Of a stretch of 64,000 nucleotides of DNA, positions 5,998 through 63,540 are shown one piece after another. Position 1 is the first letter of the stretch. Every line of letters begins with the position of its first letter. A model generated the notes under the pieces. That model searched no databases. It had not been told where the DNA came from and was given only the letters and a program-made list of their open reading frames with translations. Position numbers and translations under genes: made by a program. Source of the stretch: Clostridia bacterium (GTDB lineage Bacteria; Bacillota; Clostridia; UMGS1883); NCBI GenBank assembly GCA_045545295.1, contig JAZQAO010000036.1:139029-203028 (forward strand). Direction: 5' to 3'.

Positions 5998-6040
5998 ATT
6001 AATTTAATAAATAATTTTTAATTAAGAAAGGATGAAAAAA

Positions 6041-8119
6041 ATGGCAAAGACTAAAAAACTTTTATGTCTGGCAGTGGCAGTAGCGCTTGTTTCTTCGCTC
6101 TTCTGCTTGCCGGCAAGTGCTACCGCTAACTGGTCACATATCTTTGATATGTCAGCAATGATGGGTGCAGGTAGTTACGGCAGACACGGTTCAACAACTA
6201 CTACAGATTATAATGTAGCAGGAGTATATGGAAAGAGTACTGATGGTGTGTTGAAGCTCAACGCAACTGCAGAAACTGCGGACTACTATCTTGGATTGTC
6301 AGGAAGTAAAACGCTATATGCTTTTACTGCAAACTCCAAGACAGTAATTTCGTATGATGTAGCATTCGATTCATTGGATGCTACCGGAAACAATCACGTT
6401 TCCCTTATGCAGTTTGCCAATGCAACCGGTGGACAGATTGCTCAACTTAATTTAGTACAGATTACAAAGGGCGGTCAGGTAAATCCTTTGGACAAAGGTT
6501 ACATAGCGACTTCTGTAAAACCGGGTTGCTGGAATAACATTACTGCAGTTATTGACCTTGGCTCTGATTCAAAAACATATACTTGTACTATTTATCTCAA
6601 CGGGGTATCCGTACAAAGCACTACAGGAACACTTTCAACTGAAACTGCTTATGTAAGAGCATTGAGAATTTGTGACCGTACAGTTGGAGGCACAGTATAT
6701 ATCGACAATCTGAAGTTTGCTTCATATCCCGCTGCAGATACAGTTAACCTTAATTTCGTATCTCAAGCAGCAACTACTGATGCAGCTAAAGTCGCTGTGA
6801 ATACTGCAAACAATACTGTTGCTATTACCGATGCAGATTTGAAAGTTGCAGAATTTAAGAATATTACAACAGGCTTTGTTGTTCTTGGTGAAGATGGTGC
6901 GGTAGCAGCAGATGATGCTTCTATTTTAGATTCTGAAATTTATGCAGTATATGTAAATGATGTTAACTCATACTATGCACCCTACACAATTTCTGTAATT
7001 CCTCCTGTAATTACAGGTAGCACAACTGTATATCAGGAAATTATCAACAATGATACAAAAGAAATCAGAGTTGTTGATATGCCGAAACTTACAGTTGGCA
7101 CATTCAAGGATAATGTAACAAATACAGGTACACTGTCTATAACTAAAAACGGTGAGGCTGCTGCTGACAGTGATTTACTTAAGGATTGCACAGTTAACCT
7201 TACACTTGGCAGTTACTATGACTATACTTACACAGTTGTTACCGAGCGCAGCTATCTTCTTAAGAAAGAAACCTTTGACGGAACATTTACAACAAGAACA
7301 AGCGGTAACGGAACTGTTTATTCAGGAAATGGTTTCGTTTGGGCAGGAAATACAAACGGAATCAGCGGAGTAACATTTGGTGAACTGACAGGTCTCGGCG
7401 GCAAAGATGCAGACGATTCAAGTTTTGGCATTACTGTTAACGGAGCAAGTGCAGATCAAGAAATCTTTACTTATATTTCAAATCCGTATATAAACAGCAG
7501 CAAGGTAATCAACACCACTCATACTCTTGAAACAAAGATTTATCTGGATGATGTTGATGCGGCAGATTTCAGCGCAATTGATTTCTGTATTAACGGAAGA
7601 AACCTTCTTAAAATTTCCCCTGACGGAAGCATCAAGCACACAGACGGTACAGTTGCTACCGGTGTGAAGTGGACGGCAGGTGAATGGATTCCCGTTGCAG
7701 TAACATATCACAAGGCTACAAATATAATTGATGTTTATGTAGGCGGCAAAAAGATAGCTTGCACATGGAATCCTGCTCCTAACGGTTCAGATATTCGTTT
7801 CCGTCCGTGGGTAAAGAAGGATGCAGTTTTTACATTTGCAATGGACGATGTTAAAATCTACACAGACAGTCTTGCAAAAGTAAGATATGACGTTGACTCT
7901 GCAAACCGTACAGTTGTTGCAGATGCAACAGAAAACCTTGCAACTCTTCCCATTATTGCAGAGTATGACAGTACAGGAAAACTTCTTGGTGTAACTCTCG
8001 GAAAGAGTGAAAAAACAATTTCAAGAAATTACGCAGCAGATAGCAAGGTAAAGGTTATCCTTATTAACAGTCTTGCAGAGCTTGAAGCTATAACAGACGT
8101 ATACGAAGCAGTTAGATAA
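6041..8119 (+). CDS. Secreted LamG-repeat protein, paralog of the N-terminal two thirds of 8629..12171
   Basis: The ATG at 6041 is better spaced from RBS AGAAAGGA than the ATG at 6032. Signal peptide MAKTKKLLCLAVAVALVSSLFCLPASA. Modules end in TVYIDNLKFASY and FAMDDVKIYTD. Long colinear similarity to the next gene, e.g. ETFDGTFTTRTSGNGTVYSGN versus ETFDGTYSQRTSGNGKIYVGN. Confidence 0.65.
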   Translation: MAKTKKLLCLAVAVALVSSLFCLPASATANWSHIFDMSAMMGAGSYGRHGSTTTTDYNVAGVYGKSTDGVLKLNATAETADYYLGLSGSKTLYAFTANSKTVISYDVAFDSLDATGNNHVSLMQFANATGGQIAQLNLVQITKGGQVNPLDKGYIATSVKPGCWNNITAVIDLGSDSKTYTCTIYLNGVSVQSTTGTLSTETAYVRALRICDRTVGGTVYIDNLKFASYPAADTVNLNFVSQAATTDAAKVAVNTANNTVAITDADLKVAEFKNITTGFVVLGEDGAVAADDASILDSEIYAVYVNDVNSYYAPYTISVIPPVITGSTTVYQEIINNDTKEIRVVDMPKLTVGTFKDNVTNTGTLSITKNGEAAADSDLLKDCTVNLTLGSYYDYTYTVVTERSYLLKKETFDGTFTTRTSGNGTVYSGNGFVWAGNTNGISGVTFGELTGLGGKDADDSSFGITVNGASADQEIFTYISNPYINSSKVINTTHTLETKIYLDDVDAADFSAIDFCINGRNLLKISPDGSIKHTDGTVATGVKWTAGEWIPVAVTYHKATNIIDVYVGGKKIACTWNPAPNGSDIRFRPWVKKDAVFTFAMDDVKIYTDSLAKVRYDVDSANRTVVADATENLATLPIIAEYDSTGKLLGVTLGKSEKTISRNYAADSKVKVILINSLAELEAITDVYEAVR

Positions 8120-8128
8120 TTGGTAACA

Positions 8129-8172
8129 GGGGATGTAAAAAAAGTCCAGACTGCAAAAAGGCGATAATGATA
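8129..8172 (+). repeat. A-motif, copy 1 (stop-codon-proximal conserved ~40-mer)
   Basis: GGGGATGTAAAAAAAGTCCAGACTGCAAAAAGGCGATAATGATAC aligns by eye with 51890-51930 and 63259-63300. Confidence 0.5.
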
Positions 8173-8260
8173 CAAAATATAGATGGTTTGTAAATTATAA
8201 AATTATCCTATTTTGTTGAAAAATCTCATTTATTTCGATTTTTCTTCGTTTTTGTGCCTT

Positions 8261-8590
8261 TTTGCTACAAACAAACTTCGCCTCTCGGTCGTCGCAACTA
8301 ACGCTTTAGTCGTATTTGCTTTGCAAATATCGACGCAGTCGCTTGGTTGCTCCTCTCCCATTCAGAGCACGCTTACGCTACCACTCTGAACGGGGCCCGT
8401 TATGTAGGGTCTCCCAAAAAGTCCGAAGACTTTTTGGGAAAGAGACAAAACAAGATTGCAACCATAGTTTTCCTGCGGAAAACGTAATTGCAAACCTTGT
8501 TTTGGCGAGCCTTCGGGTAACCTGACAATGCCTGCACACAGGCATTGTCAGCTCAGTTTGTTCGTTCTGAAGCATTTTTTTCCTATCCCC
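8261..8590 (+). repeat. B-family intergenic repeat, long form (B1, 330 bp) filled with perfect hairpins
   Basis: Termini TTTGCTACAAACAAACTTCGCCTCTCGG ... CCTTCGGGTAACC ... CAGTTTGTTCGTTCTGAAGCATTTTTTTCCTATCCCC match the short copies. The interior contains at least 6 hairpins read directly (see findings). Confidence 0.7.
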
Positions 8591-8628
8591 TAAAAAGTAG
8601 GTGTAATTTTAAGGAAAGGAAGAATGAT

Positions 8629-11600
8629 ATGACAAAAATGAAAAAGCTTTTATGTCTGGCACTTGTGATTACGCTTCTTTCCTCGCTTATTTGTATATCG
8701 GCAAGTGCCGAGGTTACAGAAGCCGCAAAGGTTACCTTTGCAGGCGGTGCTTATGATTCAACAGCATCTATAGGTAATGCCGACCCGTCTTTTTTGGGTG
8801 GTGTTTACGGAAAGGCTGAGGACGATTACAGTGCAGCATTTTTAAATGCGGAAGGAGATAAATTCTTCTCCGTAGGTACAGGAGCAGACGGTCTTACAGT
8901 GGAAGAGGGCGGTAAGCTTAAGATTTCTTACGACCTTGCTTCTAACGATTTTCACTCTGCTTCAAAAGAGGGCGGCACAAGAGCAACTCATGGCCGTTAT
9001 GTAAGTATGAAGATTAACGATGGTGGTCGTTTCGTTATACTCGGACCTAACGGTTATACTCTTGATGACGGTACTACAAATCAGAGAGGAACATACAGCA
9101 AGCTTAATGACTATGCATGGAATAATATAACAGCAATTTTTGAGTTTAACGAAGACAACTCTGCGGCTGATTATAAGCTCTATGTAAACGGCAAGCAGGT
9201 TCATCGCAATGAAGCTTATGCAGTACGTCTCCCGAAGAAGGTAAATGATTTTCGTGTAGGTGGTGTGTTAATCAGCACTGATGAAGTTTACTACGATAAC
9301 TTTGTTGTAGAAGCATACGGAGCAGAAGATGAAGCTCCGGCAATTAACTTCACAACAGATGCAGCAGCACTTGAGGGTAACGAAGCTCTTGTAGATGCTA
9401 CTGAAAAAGTGATTAACATTTCAGATGTTGAAATGACAGTAGCAGATTTCAGAGCGGCTACAGAAAACTTTATGGTTCTTAACGAAACAGGTGCAGTAGC
9501 GGATGATAGCGACTATATCGCATATTCGACAGTTTATGCAGTTTGCAAGGACGGTGTAAACACATATTACGACAAGTATGAATTTTCAATTGAACCTCCT
9601 GTAATTGAGGCGACAACTAACGAATTCAAGGAAATTGTTAACAGTGATACAAAGGAAATCAGACTTGTTGACAGAATGGATTTAACTGTTGGCGAATTCC
9701 TTGCAAACACAGAAGGTGCTACAGTAACTCTTCTTGACGGAAACGAAGCTTCCGATGATACACTTCTTAAAAACTGTAGGGTAAGTGCGGTTCTCGGATC
9801 AATCTACGACATTGAATATACTCTTGTTACTGCACGCAGTTATGCTCTTGAAAATGAAACCTTTGACGGAACATACTCGCAGAGAACAAGCGGTAACGGA
9901 AAAATCTATGTGGGCAATGACATTCAATGGAACGGACAGACAAACGGAAAAGCCGGCGTTAAATTTGACGAAGCGATAGGTCTTGGCGGTAAAGACGACA
10001 CAGACAAGAGTCTGGCGCTCTCTGTAGAAAACGCAGGAAGTGCCGGTGACGTGTTTATGTACCTTAACAATCCTTACTCTTTGTCAAAAACAGAGCTTTC
10101 ATCTACATTTACTATGGAAGGAAAGCTTTTCATAGACGGTGTGGATGATACAGACATAAGTTCAATTGACGTTGTTGTAAACGGTAGAGTTGCCATTAAA
10201 CTTCTGCCTGACGGCAAGATAATGACAACTGACGGTACCGTTCTTGCTCCTGTAACATGGGAAAACGGAAAGTGGCTTCCTTTTGCAATAACACAGCATA
10301 AGGCTACCAACAGAATAAACGTTTTTGTTGGTGGTATTGACGCAAAATGCAGCTGGACTGCCGGACCTTTCCAGGCAGATATCCGTCTGCGTCCCATGTT
10401 GAAGGAAGGTGCATCTTTCACCTTTGCAGTTGACGATGTTAAGATGTACACAGACAGCATCGAAAAGGTTAAATATGATATTACCGAAGATGCAGTTACA
10501 ATGACGTCAACCTTTAACCTCAGCGGAGCTCCGATTCTTGCAGTATACGATGAAGACGGAAAGCTTAACGAAGTTAAAATCGGAAAAGATGCAAACACAG
10601 TAACAATAAACTATGAAGAAGGACAGAGTGTGAAGGCTTTCCTTTGGGGTAAAGACTCTAAGCTTGGTCCTTGGACAGAAAAAGTAACAGTCGTTGACCG
10701 GGGAAACCTGGTCAACGCACTTACTGCGTCTCTTTCAAAGGCTTTTACTGATAATATGGTTCTTCAGTGCGATATGCCTGTTACAGTATGGGGAACATCG
10801 GCTGATGCAAACGGTTCAACACTTGCTGTAACACTCGGCAATGAAACAAAAACAGCCTATGTAAACGACGGAGAGTGGGAAGTAGAATTCTCTGAAAGAG
10901 AAGCAAGTGCTGACGGTGTAAAACTGACAGTAGCTACAGCAAGCGGAACAGAAACAGTTAATAACATCGCTTTTGGTGATGTGTACTTTGTCGGCGGACA
11001 AAGTAACGCATATCTTCCTATGAATACAGTTGATACATATGCAGCGGATAAAGCAAGCTTTACAAAAAGTGACGAAATCCGCATTTTTCATCAGGTAGGT
11101 AACTATGCTTCAACCGTGCAGGAAAATCCCGTAGAGGGCAGTAAGTGGGAATATGCTACAGAAAGCACAATCGGAAAAATGTCCGCAATAGGTATGTACT
11201 TTGCAAAGACTCTTAAAGAAAACGGTGTAGATAAGCCTATCGGTCTTATTTCAGTAGCACGTAGCGGATCTTCTCTTCACTGGAATATTCCCTCAAGCAT
11301 TACCGCCAAGTATCAGATTGGCTATATGACAGATAAAACAAATCAGGCATACAACGCTCTTATGGCACCGGTGGAAAAATTCAGCGCAAAGGGTATGCTC
11401 TGGTATCAGGGTGAAAATGACTCTATAAAGGGTTCAACAGACATTATTTCTCAGTCAACAGAAATTTACAAAGATATGTTCAGCGATTTCCACTCATATC
11501 TTAAGCAAACAACTAAAAACAACGATTTCAAGATGTTTACGGTTCAGCTTTCAAGCCATCCTTCCGAACAAATGCTTGCCGGAAATCCTACAACAGGCTG

Positions 11601-41446: not shown

Positions 41447-41523
41447 TGGCGTGCTTGGAGGGATTCGAACCCCCGACCCTTTGGTTCGTAGCCAAATACT
41501 CTATCCAACTGAGCTACAAGCAC
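41447..41523 (-). tRNA. tRNA-Arg (anticodon ACG), CCA encoded
   Basis: Manual cloverleaf on the minus strand: GTGCTTG-TA-GCTC-AGTTGGATA-GAGT-A-TTTGG-CTACGAA-CCAAA-GGGTC-GGGGG-TTCGAAT-CCCTC-CAAGCAC-G-CCA. Confidence 0.85.
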
Positions 41524-41821: not shown

Positions 41822-41920
41822 GGGGAGTGGAAAAGAGGTCAGAACGGACGAATTGAACCCCGAAGGGGCTTGCCGAAGCTGTATGAGATACAGCGAGAGT
41901 TGAAATTCGTTCGTAGCAAA
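41822..41920 (-). repeat. B-family intergenic hairpin repeat, short form (copy B3)
   Basis: Its reverse complement aligns with 8261-8590 and 63389-63489. The termini CTTTTGCTACGAACGAATTTCAAC...TTCAATTCGTCCGTTCTGAC..TTTTCCACTCCCC enclose the small hairpins CTGTATCTCATACAG and CCCCTTCGGGG. Confidence 0.6.
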
Positions 41921-41924
41921 AGGA

Positions 41925-41962
41925 TTGAAAATAAAGAAAGACCGTATAAAATACGGCCTTTC
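41925..41962 (-). terminator. Rho-independent terminator after the NagB-like gene
   Basis: Minus strand GAAAGGCCGTA-loop-TACGGTCTTTC (11-bp stem, one mismatch), followed by TTTATTTTC. Confidence 0.6.
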
Positions 41963-42049
41963 AACAATAATAAATTGTTTAATGGTTTCAGAATTATTAA
42001 TTCTGTTTGTTTTCTTTTTGCGTTCTGGACTTTTTTACACCCACAAAAA

Positions 42050-51889: not shown

Positions 51890-51930
51890 GGGATGTTAAA
51901 AATGCCCAGAGCACAAAAGGACGATTTGTT
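51890..51930 (+). repeat. A-motif, copy 2
   Basis: GGGATGTTAAAAATGCCCAGAGCACAAAAGGACGATTTGTT, starting 4 nt after the stop of 50534..51886. Confidence 0.5.
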
Positions 51931-51990
51931 AAATGCGGAATTCGGAGTGCGAAGTTCGAAGTGAAGGAAATTTTTGCTGAAGCAAAAATA
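51931..51990 (+). repeat. C-family repeat, partial copy (C4)
   Basis: AAATGCGGAATTCGGAGTGCGAAGTTCGAAGTGAAGGAAATTTTTGCTGAAGCAAAAATA is the reverse complement of the right half of the C copies at 55.2, 57.0 and 59.2 kb. Confidence 0.6.
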
Positions 51991-62245: not shown

Positions 62246-63268
62246 ATGGAAAAAAAGTGGGGACTTTTAGTTCATCTTGGTCGTAATATGTGGGGCGACC
62301 TTAGGGCACAGACAGAGGTTCATTTCGATATGGATGTATGGAATGACTTTGTTGACCATTGTGAGGCTAACGGACTTAATATGATTATTATGGACGTTGG
62401 TGAGGCTGTCGAGTGGGAAAGCCATCCCGAGCTTTCAATCAAGGGTGCATGGAGTAAAGAGCTTGTTAAGAGCGAGGTTTTAAGACTTCGTGAAAAGGGT
62501 ATCGAGCTTATTCCCAAGCTCAACTTCTCTAAGACACACGATGCGTGGCTTGGTGTTTATTCAAGAATGGCTTCAACACCCGAATATTACAAGGTGACAA
62601 AAGAATTAATCGAGGAAGTTTACGAAATGTTCCTTCATCCCTCAATCATACATATCGGTATGGACGAGGAAAACTGGAAGCATGCTACAGAAGGTGACAG
62701 ATCAGTTATTATGTTCCGTTCAAGTGCTCTTCAGGTTAATGATACAAACTATTTTATTGAATGTGTAGAAAACCTCGGTGCAAAATGTCATATGTGGCAT
62801 GATCCTTACTGTAACGTAAAGGAAGAAGATGCGGAAAAAATCAAAAAATCCGTTATTCCCGAGGTTTGGATGTACTATTCATACCTTAAAGAAAACTGGA
62901 CACTTATTTCCGAGCAGGACGATGAAGTAAAGGATTTCTACGCAACAGAATTTGTTCGCCGTTACGGTTACACAATCGAATATGTTGAGGAATCACCCTC
63001 TGTATTAAACGCAATCAAGCTTCTTGAAAAATTCTTCGAGGAAAAGAGACATTTCTTCCTTGCAACAAGTAACCTTTACATAAAGAACTGCGAAAAGGAT
63101 GCTATAGAATTTGTAAGAAGAAATAACCCTGACCTTTCACTTCTTGACGGTATGATTGGTGCACCCTGGGGCAGAATGTGGCCCGACAGAAAAGAGCTTT
63201 TGTGGGAAGCGGTTGAGCTTGTGGGTAAGGCAAGAAAACAAGCAGAAGAAATAATTGTGGGATGTTAA
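62246..63268 (+). CDS. Small GH20-like TIM-barrel protein (340 aa)
   Basis: The ATG at 62246 is 9 nt after AAAGGAG. WGLLVHLGRNMW, ELIPKLNFSKTHDAW and IHIGMDEENW (an H-x-G-x-D-E-like block) echo the motifs of 18417..20852. Confidence 0.4.
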   Translation: MEKKWGLLVHLGRNMWGDLRAQTEVHFDMDVWNDFVDHCEANGLNMIIMDVGEAVEWESHPELSIKGAWSKELVKSEVLRLREKGIELIPKLNFSKTHDAWLGVYSRMASTPEYYKVTKELIEEVYEMFLHPSIIHIGMDEENWKHATEGDRSVIMFRSSALQVNDTNYFIECVENLGAKCHMWHDPYCNVKEEDAEKIKKSVIPEVWMYYSYLKENWTLISEQDDEVKDFYATEFVRRYGYTIEYVEESPSVLNAIKLLEKFFEEKRHFFLATSNLYIKNCEKDAIEFVRRNNPDLSLLDGMIGAPWGRMWPDRKELLWEAVELVGKARKQAEEIIVGC

Positions 63269-63300
63269 AAAGCTCCAGAACGCAAAACGAATATCGTTTT
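63259..63300 (+). repeat. A-motif, copy 3
   Basis: GGGATGTTAAAAAGCTCCAGAACGCAAAACGAATATCGTTTT. It overlaps the last three codons and the stop of 62246..63268. Confidence 0.5.
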
Positions 63301-63388
63301 AATAAAATGCTTTTATTGAATAATAAAAACAAAGTACCGTTAAATGTTTTCGGTAGAAATTTGCGATGCAAATTTCGAAATAATTCGT

Positions 63389-63489
63389 TTTGCTACGAAC
63401 AAACTTCACCTCTCGGCGTATCCACACATACGCCTTCGGGTAACCCCTATGGGTTCAGTTTGTCCGTTCTGAAACTTTTTTCCTATCCC
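63389..63489 (+). repeat. B-family repeat, short form (B2)
   Basis: TTTGCTACGAACAAACTTCACCTCTCGGCGTATCCACACATACGCCTTCGGGTAACCCCTATGGGTTCAGTTTGTCCGTTCTGAAACTTTTTTCCTATCCC. Confidence 0.7.
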
Positions 63490-63510
63490 TTTGCGGGATA
63501 TTAAAATGCC

Positions 63511-63540
63511 CTTTGCTACGAACATTTTTTCCTATTTTCC
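63511..63540 (+). repeat. B-family repeat, collapsed copy (termini only)
   Basis: CTTTGCTACGAACA|TTTTTTCCTATTTTCC: the left and right ends of the B element are joined with no interior. Confidence 0.5.

What the first reader, a model, noticed from the sequence alone, without database searches (positions are those of the whole stretch)
8261..8590. 330-bp long-form intergenic element packed with perfect hairpins, between two paralogous genes
The element shares both termini with ~100-bp copies at 63389-63489 and 41822-41920, but carries ~230 extra nt made of near-perfect stem-loops read directly:
- ATTTGC-TT-GCAAAT
- CCCATTCAGAG...CTCTGAACGGG
- GTCTCCCAAAAAGTC-CGAA-GACTTTTTGGGAAAGAGAC
- AAAACAAG...[GTTTTCC-TGC-GGAAAAC]...CTTGTTTT
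- CC-TTCG-GG
- CTGACAATGCCTG-CACA-CAGGCATTGTCAG

The outer arms (ACAAACAAACTT / CAGTTTGTTCGT) can pair and are followed by a T7 run, so the whole unit looks like a giant terminator-like hairpin with a modular loop.

It could be a structured 3'-UTR or attenuator RNA, or a MITE that has accumulated nested palindromes. I cannot match it to any RNA family I know.
Basis: seen in the sequence. Interest (0 to 1): 0.6.

Follow-up and report, generated by a model that had tools for sequence, protein, structure and literature searches.

The report
Mosaic hairpin repeat behind stop codons
The 330-bp hairpin-rich stretch is an enlarged copy of a small non-coding repeat that uncultured gut and rumen Clostridia carry in dozens of copies just behind stop codons; it is most likely mobile "junk-like" DNA of an undescribed family, not a regulatory RNA of the neighbouring genes.

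Summary
8261-8590 is strongly folded, and its ends match the ~100-nt copies at 63389-63489 and 41822-41920(-).

It is only the 3' half of a larger unit, 8129-8590:
- a head motif 9 nt after the stop codon at 8119;
- a long-range helix;
- an A/U-rich hairpin;
- a three-helix core;
- a T-rich tail.

The genome (2.0 Mb) holds about 60 cores and 64 heads. A covariance model finds the core in 78 of 87 genomes of the order. Rfam has no match.

The "extra 230 nt" is a 222-nt mosaic cassette (8288-8509). It sits exactly where short copies have a 15-nt hairpin. A sister species has the same unit at the same site with the short hairpin. More distant strains lack the unit altogether.

Mismatches in the helices are A·C, not G·T, on the + strand. 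The core therefore fits the opposite strand, not the + strand with its T7 run.

My best reading is a non-autonomous, recombining interspersed repeat resembling MITEs, BIMEs or bcr1, with an unknown mover. Y1 transposase, TnpB and reverse transcriptase do not track it. It is a new variant of a known kind and of moderate interest.

The parts
8117..8119 (+). TAA stop codon of the upstream paralogue (ORF 6032-8119). The unit begins 9 nt later.
8129..8164 (+). Head motif ('A-box'), GGGGATGTAAAAAAAGTCCAGACTGCAAAAAGGCGA. The family consensus is GGGATGTTAAAAaTGCCCAGACCGCAAAAGGC.
   Evidence: There are 64 copies in the genome. Of these, 52 lie on the strand of the upstream gene, and 41 start within 15 nt of its stop codon (4.4% expected, p about 1e-39)..
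8153..8162 (+). 5' arm of the long-range helix (GCAAAAAGGC). It pairs with 8256-8265.
   Evidence: The arms co-vary between subfamilies: GCAAAACGAA/TTCGTTTTGC, GTTCGTTGGC/GCCAACGAAC and GCAAAGGGA/TCCCTTTGC.
8218..8244 (+). A/U-rich hairpin GAAAAATC...GATTTTTC, followed by a T-rich stretch. It resembles a terminator but is weak.
   Evidence: The head-plus-hairpin part folds better on the gene-sense strand in 25 of 32 units. It does not pass the terminator scan.
8256..8265 (+). 3' arm of the long-range helix (GCCTTTTTGC).
8267..8277 (.). Outer core stem P1, first arm (ACAAACAAACT). It pairs with 8555-8565.
   Evidence: 8 of 10 modelled P1 pairs show changes on both sides across 97 copies from many genomes.
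8278..8287 (.). Conserved junction TCGCCTCTCG.
8288..8509 (.). 222-nt mosaic hairpin cassette. It occupies the slot of the short P2 hairpin and is made of sub-modules at about 1-75, 76-112 and 118-222.
   Evidence: The sister species G063 has ACGTACTTACGTACG here in an otherwise identical unit. Metagenome contigs of other copies join 8287 to 8509 through 14-nt hairpins. G000 holds 4 copies, in units of different subfamilies. Only 7 of 39 genomes of the genus have it, and its pieces occur separately.
8510..8521 (.). Conserved junction CCTTCGGGTAAC (CTTCGG is invariant).
8522..8551 (.). Enlarged P3 hairpin CTGACAATGCCTG-CACA-CAGGCATTGTCAG.
   Evidence: Short copies have 9-16-nt hairpins here. 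In G063 the loop is reverse-complemented to TGTG.
8555..8565 (.). Outer core stem P1, second arm (AGTTTGTTCGT).
8566..8590 (+). Tail: TCTGAAGCA, the T7 run, then CCTATCCCC. Its end can pair with a GGG(A)T head-like motif downstream.
8591..8612 (+). Degenerate second head-like motif (TAAAAAGTAGGTGTAATTTTAAGG), just before the ribosome-binding site of the downstream gene.
   Evidence: Most units are followed by a copy of their own left-hand head motif that includes 2-9 nt of unique flank. Here the copy is decayed.
63259..63489 (+). Complete short-form unit (head at 63259, core at 63389-63489). Its own TAA serves as the stop codon of the upstream gene.
41822..42042 (-). Complete short-form unit on the minus strand (head GGGTGTAAAAAAGTCC at 42042-42027, core at 41920-41822).

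Best explanation
The stretch is one copy of an undescribed family of small, non-coding, modular interspersed repeats of uncultured gut and rumen Clostridia.

**Anatomy of a unit** (about 225 bp, but 462 bp here):
- a head motif that lands within a few bases of a stop codon;
- a helix-closed domain with one or two hairpins;
- a three-helix core with conserved junctions and two "slots" (P2, P3) that accept hairpins of any size;
- a T-rich tail.

**What is shown**
- Units are gained and lost between close relatives.
- Units exchange parts among themselves. The long form arose recently, when the 15-nt P2 hairpin of a resident short unit was replaced by a 222-nt cassette. That cassette is assembled from sub-modules found in other copies.
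- The P3 loop has flipped between the two species.

**What is inferred**
- Spread and reshuffling happen at the DNA level. Candidate routes are template switching or recombination between hairpin-rich copies, or an unidentified enzyme acting on single-stranded hairpins.
- The core helices are kept for the strand complementary to the flanking genes.
- Any effect on the neighbouring genes (termination, mRNA stability) is a by-product, not the reason the element exists.
For: **Copy number and spread**
- About 61 cores and 64 heads on 25 or more contigs of a 2.0-Mb genome.
- More than 116 loci in other Clostridia metagenome-assembled genomes.
- 78 of 87 genomes of the order, in 14 of 18 genera, with up to at least 46 copies each.

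**Mobility at this locus**
- Contigs of three metagenome runs, 93-94% identical, skip 8114-8603 and have 59 nt instead.
- G063, 95-97% identical, has the same unit with the short P2 hairpin.

**Mobility elsewhere**
- The proA-proC spacer holds a unit in G000 and none in G002, G009 and G013. G007 and G015 carry other inserts there.

**Mosaicism**
- The cassette sits in four units of different subfamilies.
- Its pieces occur alone in other genomes.
- Its first 112 nt are identical to a half-length copy on C24.

**Structure**
- 13 of 16 core pairs change on both sides, and 94% of cells are paired, against 82% when shuffled.
- The strand asymmetry points to the complementary strand.

**Position**
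- 41 of 64 heads lie within 15 nt of a same-strand stop codon.
- Orientation follows the genes and not GC skew.

**Other**
- No Rfam family matches.
- Comparable families (bcr1, BOX, RUP, SPRITE, REP) are described in PMC3184786.
Against: - No mobilising enzyme was found. Y1 transposase is present in 49 of 87 genomes and absent from complete genomes rich in the element. There is no TnpB in G000. Reverse transcriptase is present in only 33 of 87 genomes.
- The flanking direct repeats vary in length, from about 6 to 27 nt. This does not fit a classical transposase.
- The core is nearly as well conserved in families whose ProC is only about 43-45% identical. That level of conservation is more than expected for decaying selfish DNA.
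- The very tight spacing to stop codons (mode 2-3 nt) and the fixed orientation could instead mean a function in gene expression.
- Metatranscriptome contigs contain the modules, so the element is transcribed at least passively.
Confidence: 0.6

Rival explanations
1. A cis-acting 3'-UTR or intercistronic RNA element. It would be transcribed with the upstream gene and act as a terminator or attenuator, a barrier to 3' exonucleases, or a processing site.
For: - The head starts 0-6 nt after the stop codon in most cases and lies on the gene's strand.
- The head-plus-hairpin half folds better on the sense strand in 25 of 32 units.
- Hairpins are followed by T-rich runs.
- RNA-derived contigs join gene ends to heads, and join cores to the next head.
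- Conservation is high across families.
Against: - The core helices carry A·C, not G·U, on the sense strand. All 32 cores fold better on the antisense strand.
- The terminator scan finds no terminator, and a 9-nt gap separates P1 from the T-run.
- Units sit inside housekeeping operons (proA-proC, obg-yhbY, aroC-pheA), where termination would be harmful.
- The unit is dispensable in close relatives.
Confidence: 0.2
2. The core is a multi-copy gene for a structured RNA made from the strand opposite to the flanking genes (the minus strand here). Examples would be a regulatory antisense RNA or an RNA partner of an unknown protein.
For: - The wobble pattern and folding energies favour that strand. 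One variable position shows all six pair types when read on the antisense strand.
- Junction sequences are purine-rich on that strand, and they are conserved across three families.
- A 10-of-12 promoter-like site at 8635-8606(-) points into this copy.
Against: - Promoter-like sites next to the tail are not enriched: 10 of 60 against 7.4 ± 2.4 in shuffles.
- There is no terminator on that strand.
- There are dozens of copies with freely varying hairpin sizes, and copies are gained and lost between strains.
Confidence: 0.1
3. A SINE-like retroposon. An antisense transcript ending in ...UUUUAAC would be copied at nicked GTTAAAA targets. This would give direct repeats of variable length and tandem arrays.
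For: - Direct repeats of variable length end at GTTAAAA and include unique flank.
- Tandem arrays end in partial heads.
- The well-folded strand would be the RNA intermediate.
Against: - Reverse transcriptase genes are absent from 54 of 87 genomes. These include complete genomes with 25-45 copies (G017, G019, G022, G012).
- There is no evidence for an antisense promoter.
Confidence: 0.05

Closest known systems
bcr1 and related bcr repeats of the Bacillus cereus group (about 155 bp)
   Same: Both are small, non-coding and multi-copy, with a non-conserved genomic distribution between close strains. Both have multi-stem folds kept by compensatory changes, are transcribed, and have no known transposase (PMC3184786).
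   Different: No sequence relation was tested. bcr1 has fixed 5-bp direct repeats, whereas here the repeats vary in length. bcr1 is not reported to abut stop codons or to carry swappable hairpin cassettes.
BOX elements of Streptococcus pneumoniae and BIMEs (mosaics of REP sequences) of enterobacteria
   Same: All have a modular or mosaic build from hairpin modules present in variable number. All lie in intergenic DNA, often after genes and inside operons, and all are transcribed (PMC3184786; PMC3733652, listed).
   Different: The modules, size and host lineage differ. REP/BIME families go with RAYT transposases, and here the Y1 transposase does not track the family.
Classical MITEs (e.g. RUP, Correia)
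   Same: Shared features are the size, the copy number, insertion polymorphism and imperfect terminal inverted similarity (GGGAT..AAAA against TTTT..ATCCC).
   Different: There is no fixed target-site duplication and no parent insertion sequence with the same ends was found. The internal structure is a conserved three-way junction, not a single long hairpin.
SPRITE and intrinsic terminators
   Same: Both have hairpins followed by T-runs near the 3' ends of genes.
   Different: The T-run is not adjacent to a G+C-rich stem and no site passes the terminator scan. The core fits the opposite strand.

Membership tests
Any Rfam 15 RNA family | A match to a curated covariance model at its gathering score. 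| tested here: not met
   The only hit in the window is a tRNA. A permissive scan of 8100-8700 gives only chance matches.
Classical MITE | Small, non-coding and multi-copy, with insertion polymorphism. | tested here: met
Classical MITE | Terminal inverted repeats. | tested here: inconclusive
   The head GGGATgttAAAAA and the reverse complement of the tail, GGGATaggAAAAAA, share about 10 of 13 bases.
Classical MITE | A target-site duplication of fixed length. | tested here: not met
   The direct repeats vary from about 6 to 27 nt and include the head motif.
Classical MITE | A parent insertion sequence with the same ends. | tested here: inconclusive
   None was seen in G000. Only Y1_Tnp, TnpB and RVT_1 were searched for.
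REP/BIME with RAYT | Association with a RAYT (Y1 transposase) gene flanked by the same repeats. | tested here: not met
   The one RAYT-like gene of G000 is flanked by a different palindrome. Y1_Tnp is absent from complete genomes rich in the element, such as G019, G024, G025, G079 and G056.
REP/BIME with RAYT | Short palindromes with a GTAG or CGTC head, combined as mosaics. | tested here: inconclusive
   GTAG precedes the A/U-rich hairpin in several subfamilies, and CTAC precedes P1. The mosaic build is met.
Intrinsic terminator / SPRITE-like | A G+C-rich stem followed directly by a U-run. | tested here: not met
   0 sites in 7900-8900. There are 9 nt between P1 and the T7 run.
IS200/IS605-derived element or TnpB guide RNA | A TnpA or TnpB gene in the genome, and an orientation tied to replication. 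| tested here: not met
   No TnpB. Y1 does not track the family. Orientation follows the genes (81%) and not GC skew (61-72%, against 74% for genes).
Integron attC site | RYYYAAC ... GTTRRRY inverted core sites flanking a cassette ORF inside an array. | tested here: not met
   The head contains GTTAAAA, but there is no RYYYAAC partner. The loop length varies and the units are dispersed behind housekeeping genes.
bcr1 family | Sequence similarity to bcr1 and 5-bp TTTAT-type direct repeats. | not tested
   No bcr1 sequence was compared. The resemblance is in behaviour only.

The most novel reading that the evidence does not exclude
The core could be a strand-specific folded nucleic acid, either single-stranded DNA or an antisense RNA. 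It would have conserved junctions and exchangeable hairpin cassettes, and would be recognised by a still unknown and possibly host-encoded machinery. That machinery would place copies within a few bases of translation stop codons. On this reading it is a new class of mobile element or RNA-protein system, not a decayed MITE.
Probability: 0.15. Interest if true: 0.8.

Novelty: new variant of a known kind. Interest (0 to 1): 0.5.

Why it matters
Small structured repeats are known mostly from cultured model bacteria. This family fills a few per cent of the intergenic DNA of a whole order of uncultured gut and rumen Clostridia and sits inside housekeeping operons.

Three things make it useful:
- **A clean natural series at one site.** The same locus is seen empty, with a short unit and with a long unit. 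This shows precise exchange of a hairpin cassette in a repeat.
- **Open questions about mechanism.** The tie to stop codons and the opposite strand preferences of the two halves are unexplained. They could point to a new way of moving DNA, or to a use of the elements by the host.
- **Practical consequences.** The family breaks assemblies of these genomes. It can also be mistaken for riboswitches, small RNAs or terminators in annotation.

Tried and rejected
- **Rfam.** Gathering and permissive scans found nothing.
- **RAYT / Y1 transposase as mover.** The gene has its own, different palindromes and does not co-occur with the family.
- **TnpB or guide RNA.** There is no TnpB.
- **Reverse transcriptase / SINE model.** RT is missing from most genomes, including complete ones with many copies.
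- **Antisense promoter supplied by the tail and next head.** Not enriched over shuffles.
- **Orientation set by replication.** GC skew explains the orientation less well than gene direction does.
- **attC-like or dif-like site at the tail/head hairpin.** The core sites do not match and the loop length varies from 4 to 12 nt.
- **Small ORF on the minus strand.** Hairpin lengths are not multiples of three, so no frame is kept.
- **Riboswitch for the downstream gene.** Copies lie in front of unrelated genes, a tRNA and convergent gene ends.
- **Stop-codon type as target.** TAA is only mildly over-represented: 34 of 41 against 68% genome-wide, and 8 of the 34 are the head's own TAA.
- **Direction of transcription.** Not testable.

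Full report
**1. Observation**

One loop is TTT and not TT. Two stems each carry a single A·C mismatch.

The stretch folds far better than shuffled sequence on both strands. The + strand gives -127 kcal/mol (z = -7.9) and the - strand -142 kcal/mol (z = -9.2).

A covariance model built from genome copies scores them at 109.4 and 92.6 bits. The flanking genes are paralogues, 40% identical over about 700 residues.

**2. The real extent of the element**

Alignment of about 50 genome copies with their flanks shows that the ~100-nt "core" is the 3' half of a unit of about 225 nt. The unit consists of:
- A head motif, GGGATGTTAAAAaTGCCCAGACCGCAAAAGGC.
- A domain closed by a long-range helix. The GCAAAAGGC of the head pairs with GCCTTTTGC just before the core. 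The arms co-vary between subfamilies.
- One variable hairpin and one A/U-rich hairpin with a T-rich trailer, both inside that domain.
- The core itself: outer stem P1, junction (T)CACCTCTCG, hairpin P2, junction CTTCGGGTAAC, hairpin P3, and the return strand of P1.
- A tail, TTCTGAAC-A-T6-CCTATCCC.

In the window the unit runs from 8129 to 8590. It begins 9 nt after the stop codon at 8117-8119. Units also occur in tandem, with a period of about 235 nt.

**3. Copy number and distribution**

The window lies in a 2.02-Mb, 60-contig, 41% G+C assembly.
- nhmmer finds 61 cores and 64 heads on more than 25 contigs.
- A pattern scan of one genome per species returned more than 116 loci. Almost all come from uncultured Clostridia of human and ruminant guts. 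The labels include Congzhengia, Ructibacterium and "Oscillospiraceae".
- The covariance model hits 78 of 87 genomes of the order, in 14 of 18 genera and three families.
- Scores in the other families are nearly as high as in the home genome, although ProC is only about 43-45% identical there.
- Rfam 15 has no matching family.

**4. Position relative to genes**

Positions were judged with a crude ORF-based gene call.
- 52 of 64 heads lie on the strand of the upstream gene.
- 41 of 64 start within 15 nt of its stop codon, against 4.4% expected for non-coding positions (p about 1e-39).
- The commonest gap is 2-3 nt. In 8 cases the TAA inside the head is itself the stop codon.
- Orientation agrees with GC skew no better than genes in general do (72% and 61%, against 74%). 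It therefore follows the gene, not replication.
- Many units sit inside housekeeping operons, for example proA-proC, obg-yhbY, aroC-pheA and downstream of ispDF.

**5. What the "long form" is**

The extra material is a 222-nt block (8288-8509). It sits exactly in the P2 slot. P3 is also enlarged, to 30 nt.

Three lines of evidence fix this.
- *Other copies.* Metagenome contigs of other copies join 8287 to 8509 through 14-nt hairpins.
- *Sister species.* G063 is 95-97% identical in the flanking genes and has the same unit at the same site. Its head and hairpin domain are identical base for base. It has ACGTACTTACGTACG where G000 has the 222-nt block. Its P3 loop is the reverse complement, TGTG for CACA.
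- *More distant strains.* Contigs of 5.6-30 kb from three metagenome runs are 93-94% identical to the window. They skip 8114-8603 altogether and have 58-59 nt there instead. I could not read those letters.

The locus therefore exists in three states: empty, short and long.

The block is itself mosaic.
- G000 has four copies, in units of four different subfamilies.
- Only 7 of 39 genomes of the genus have any part of it, and none outside the genus do.
- Pieces 1-75, 1-112, 82-221 and 118-221 occur on their own.
- Its first 112 nt are 100% identical to a half-length copy on contig C24.

This is the signature of recent exchange between dispersed copies, not of slow growth in place.

**6. Which strand folds**

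Across 97 copies from many genomes, 13 of 16 modelled core pairs change on both sides. 94% of cells are paired, against 82% in shuffles. The tool's own caveat applies: related sequences, and an alignment fitted to the model, both lean towards the structure.

In 168 distinct copies the non-Watson-Crick pairs in P1 and P2 are A·C or C·A 205 times and G·T 15 times on the gene-sense strand. One P1 position shows AC, AT, GC, CG, CA and TA. Read on the opposite strand, these are all six allowed pair types.

All 32 complete units fold their core better on the antisense strand, by 8.5 kcal/mol on average. The head-plus-hairpin half folds better on the sense strand in 25 of 32 units. The 222-nt block also favours the antisense strand.

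The + strand reading, in which the T7 run serves as a terminator tail, is therefore not the one the helices were kept for. In addition, the terminator scan finds nothing in 7900-8900.

**7. Transcription**

Contigs from four metatranscriptome runs contain heads joined to the ends of foreign genes, cores joined to the next head, and parts of the 222-nt block. The flanking genes of this locus were not covered.

This shows the modules are present in RNA pools, unless DNA carried over. It gives no direction.

**8. How it might move**

Most units are followed by a second copy of their own head. That copy includes 2-9 nt of the unique left flank. The repeats run from about 6 to 27 nt. A fixed staggered cut does not give this. 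The pattern fits homology- or microhomology-guided copying, or target-primed synthesis.

I tested the obvious enzymes.
- *Y1 (RAYT-type) transposase.* One gene exists in G000, but it is flanked by a different perfect palindrome. The domain is missing from several complete genomes that are rich in the element.
- *TnpB.* Absent.
- *Reverse transcriptase.* Found in only 33 of 87 genomes, and missing from complete genomes with 25-45 copies.
- *Antisense promoters next to the tail.* Not enriched.

The mover is therefore unknown. Three observations are typical of template switching in palindromic DNA. This is an inference from established knowledge of quasipalindrome mutagenesis and is not shown here:
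- the loop flip;
- the precise cassette swap;
- a "collapsed" unit at 63497-63540, which keeps only the head, a stub of P1 and the tail.

**9. Verdict**

The finding is real. It belongs to a large, undescribed family of modular structured repeats. Members of this scan's other windows have been flagged independently. I treated those notes as leads and re-derived each point here.

The family behaves most like bcr1, BOX/BIME and MITE-type repeats (PMC3184786). It differs from them in several ways:
- its tie to stop codons;
- its two halves with opposite strand preference;
- its exchangeable hairpin cassettes;
- its strong conservation across an order.

I rate it a new variant of a known kind and of moderate interest. 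A host function, or a new mobility mechanism, is not excluded.

Noticed in passing
window 63497-63540: A 'collapsed' unit, GGGATATTAAAATGCCC|TTTGCTACGAAC|ATTTTTTCCTATTTTCC. It keeps the head, a stub of the outer stem and the tail, with every hairpin missing. It looks as if the hairpins were deleted between short repeats (GCCC, GAAC).
   Followed up: partly
genome contig C24:134536-135405 (outside the window): A RAYT-like Y1 transposase gene of about 290 aa. On both sides it is flanked by the perfect palindrome TAGTACACTTTGGGGAC(A/T)GTCCCCAAAGTGTACTA. The same palindrome lies next to some units on C21 and C24. It is a separate REP-type family.
   Followed up: partly
window 51890-51960 and many genome loci: Heads without a core are often followed by palindromes whose arms have a 7-nt period (AATGCGGAATTCGGAGTGCGAAATG...). 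This is a second repeat family that uses the same head behind stop codons.
   Followed up: no
window 8606-8635 (-): A promoter-like site, TTGTCA-18-TAAAAT (10 of 12), on the minus strand. It overlaps the start region of the downstream gene and points into the element. Such sites are not general for the family.
   Followed up: partly
loci L125 (G007) and L129 (G015), proA-proC spacer: The same short spacer that holds a unit in G000 holds an unrelated G+C-rich hairpin element of about 200 nt in G007, starting TTTTGTTAAAG. In G015 it holds an inverted solo head variant. The spacer behind proA is a hot spot for different inserts.
   Followed up: no
window 8522-8551 versus G063 (L182): The 4-nt loop of a perfect 13-bp hairpin is reverse-complemented between sister species (CACA versus TGTG). 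This is a flip typical of template switching in palindromic DNA.
   Followed up: partly
window 41450-41523 (-) and 41822-42042 (-): A complete minus-strand unit lies about 300 nt upstream of a tRNA gene on the same strand. Units are therefore not confined to protein-gene ends.
   Followed up: no
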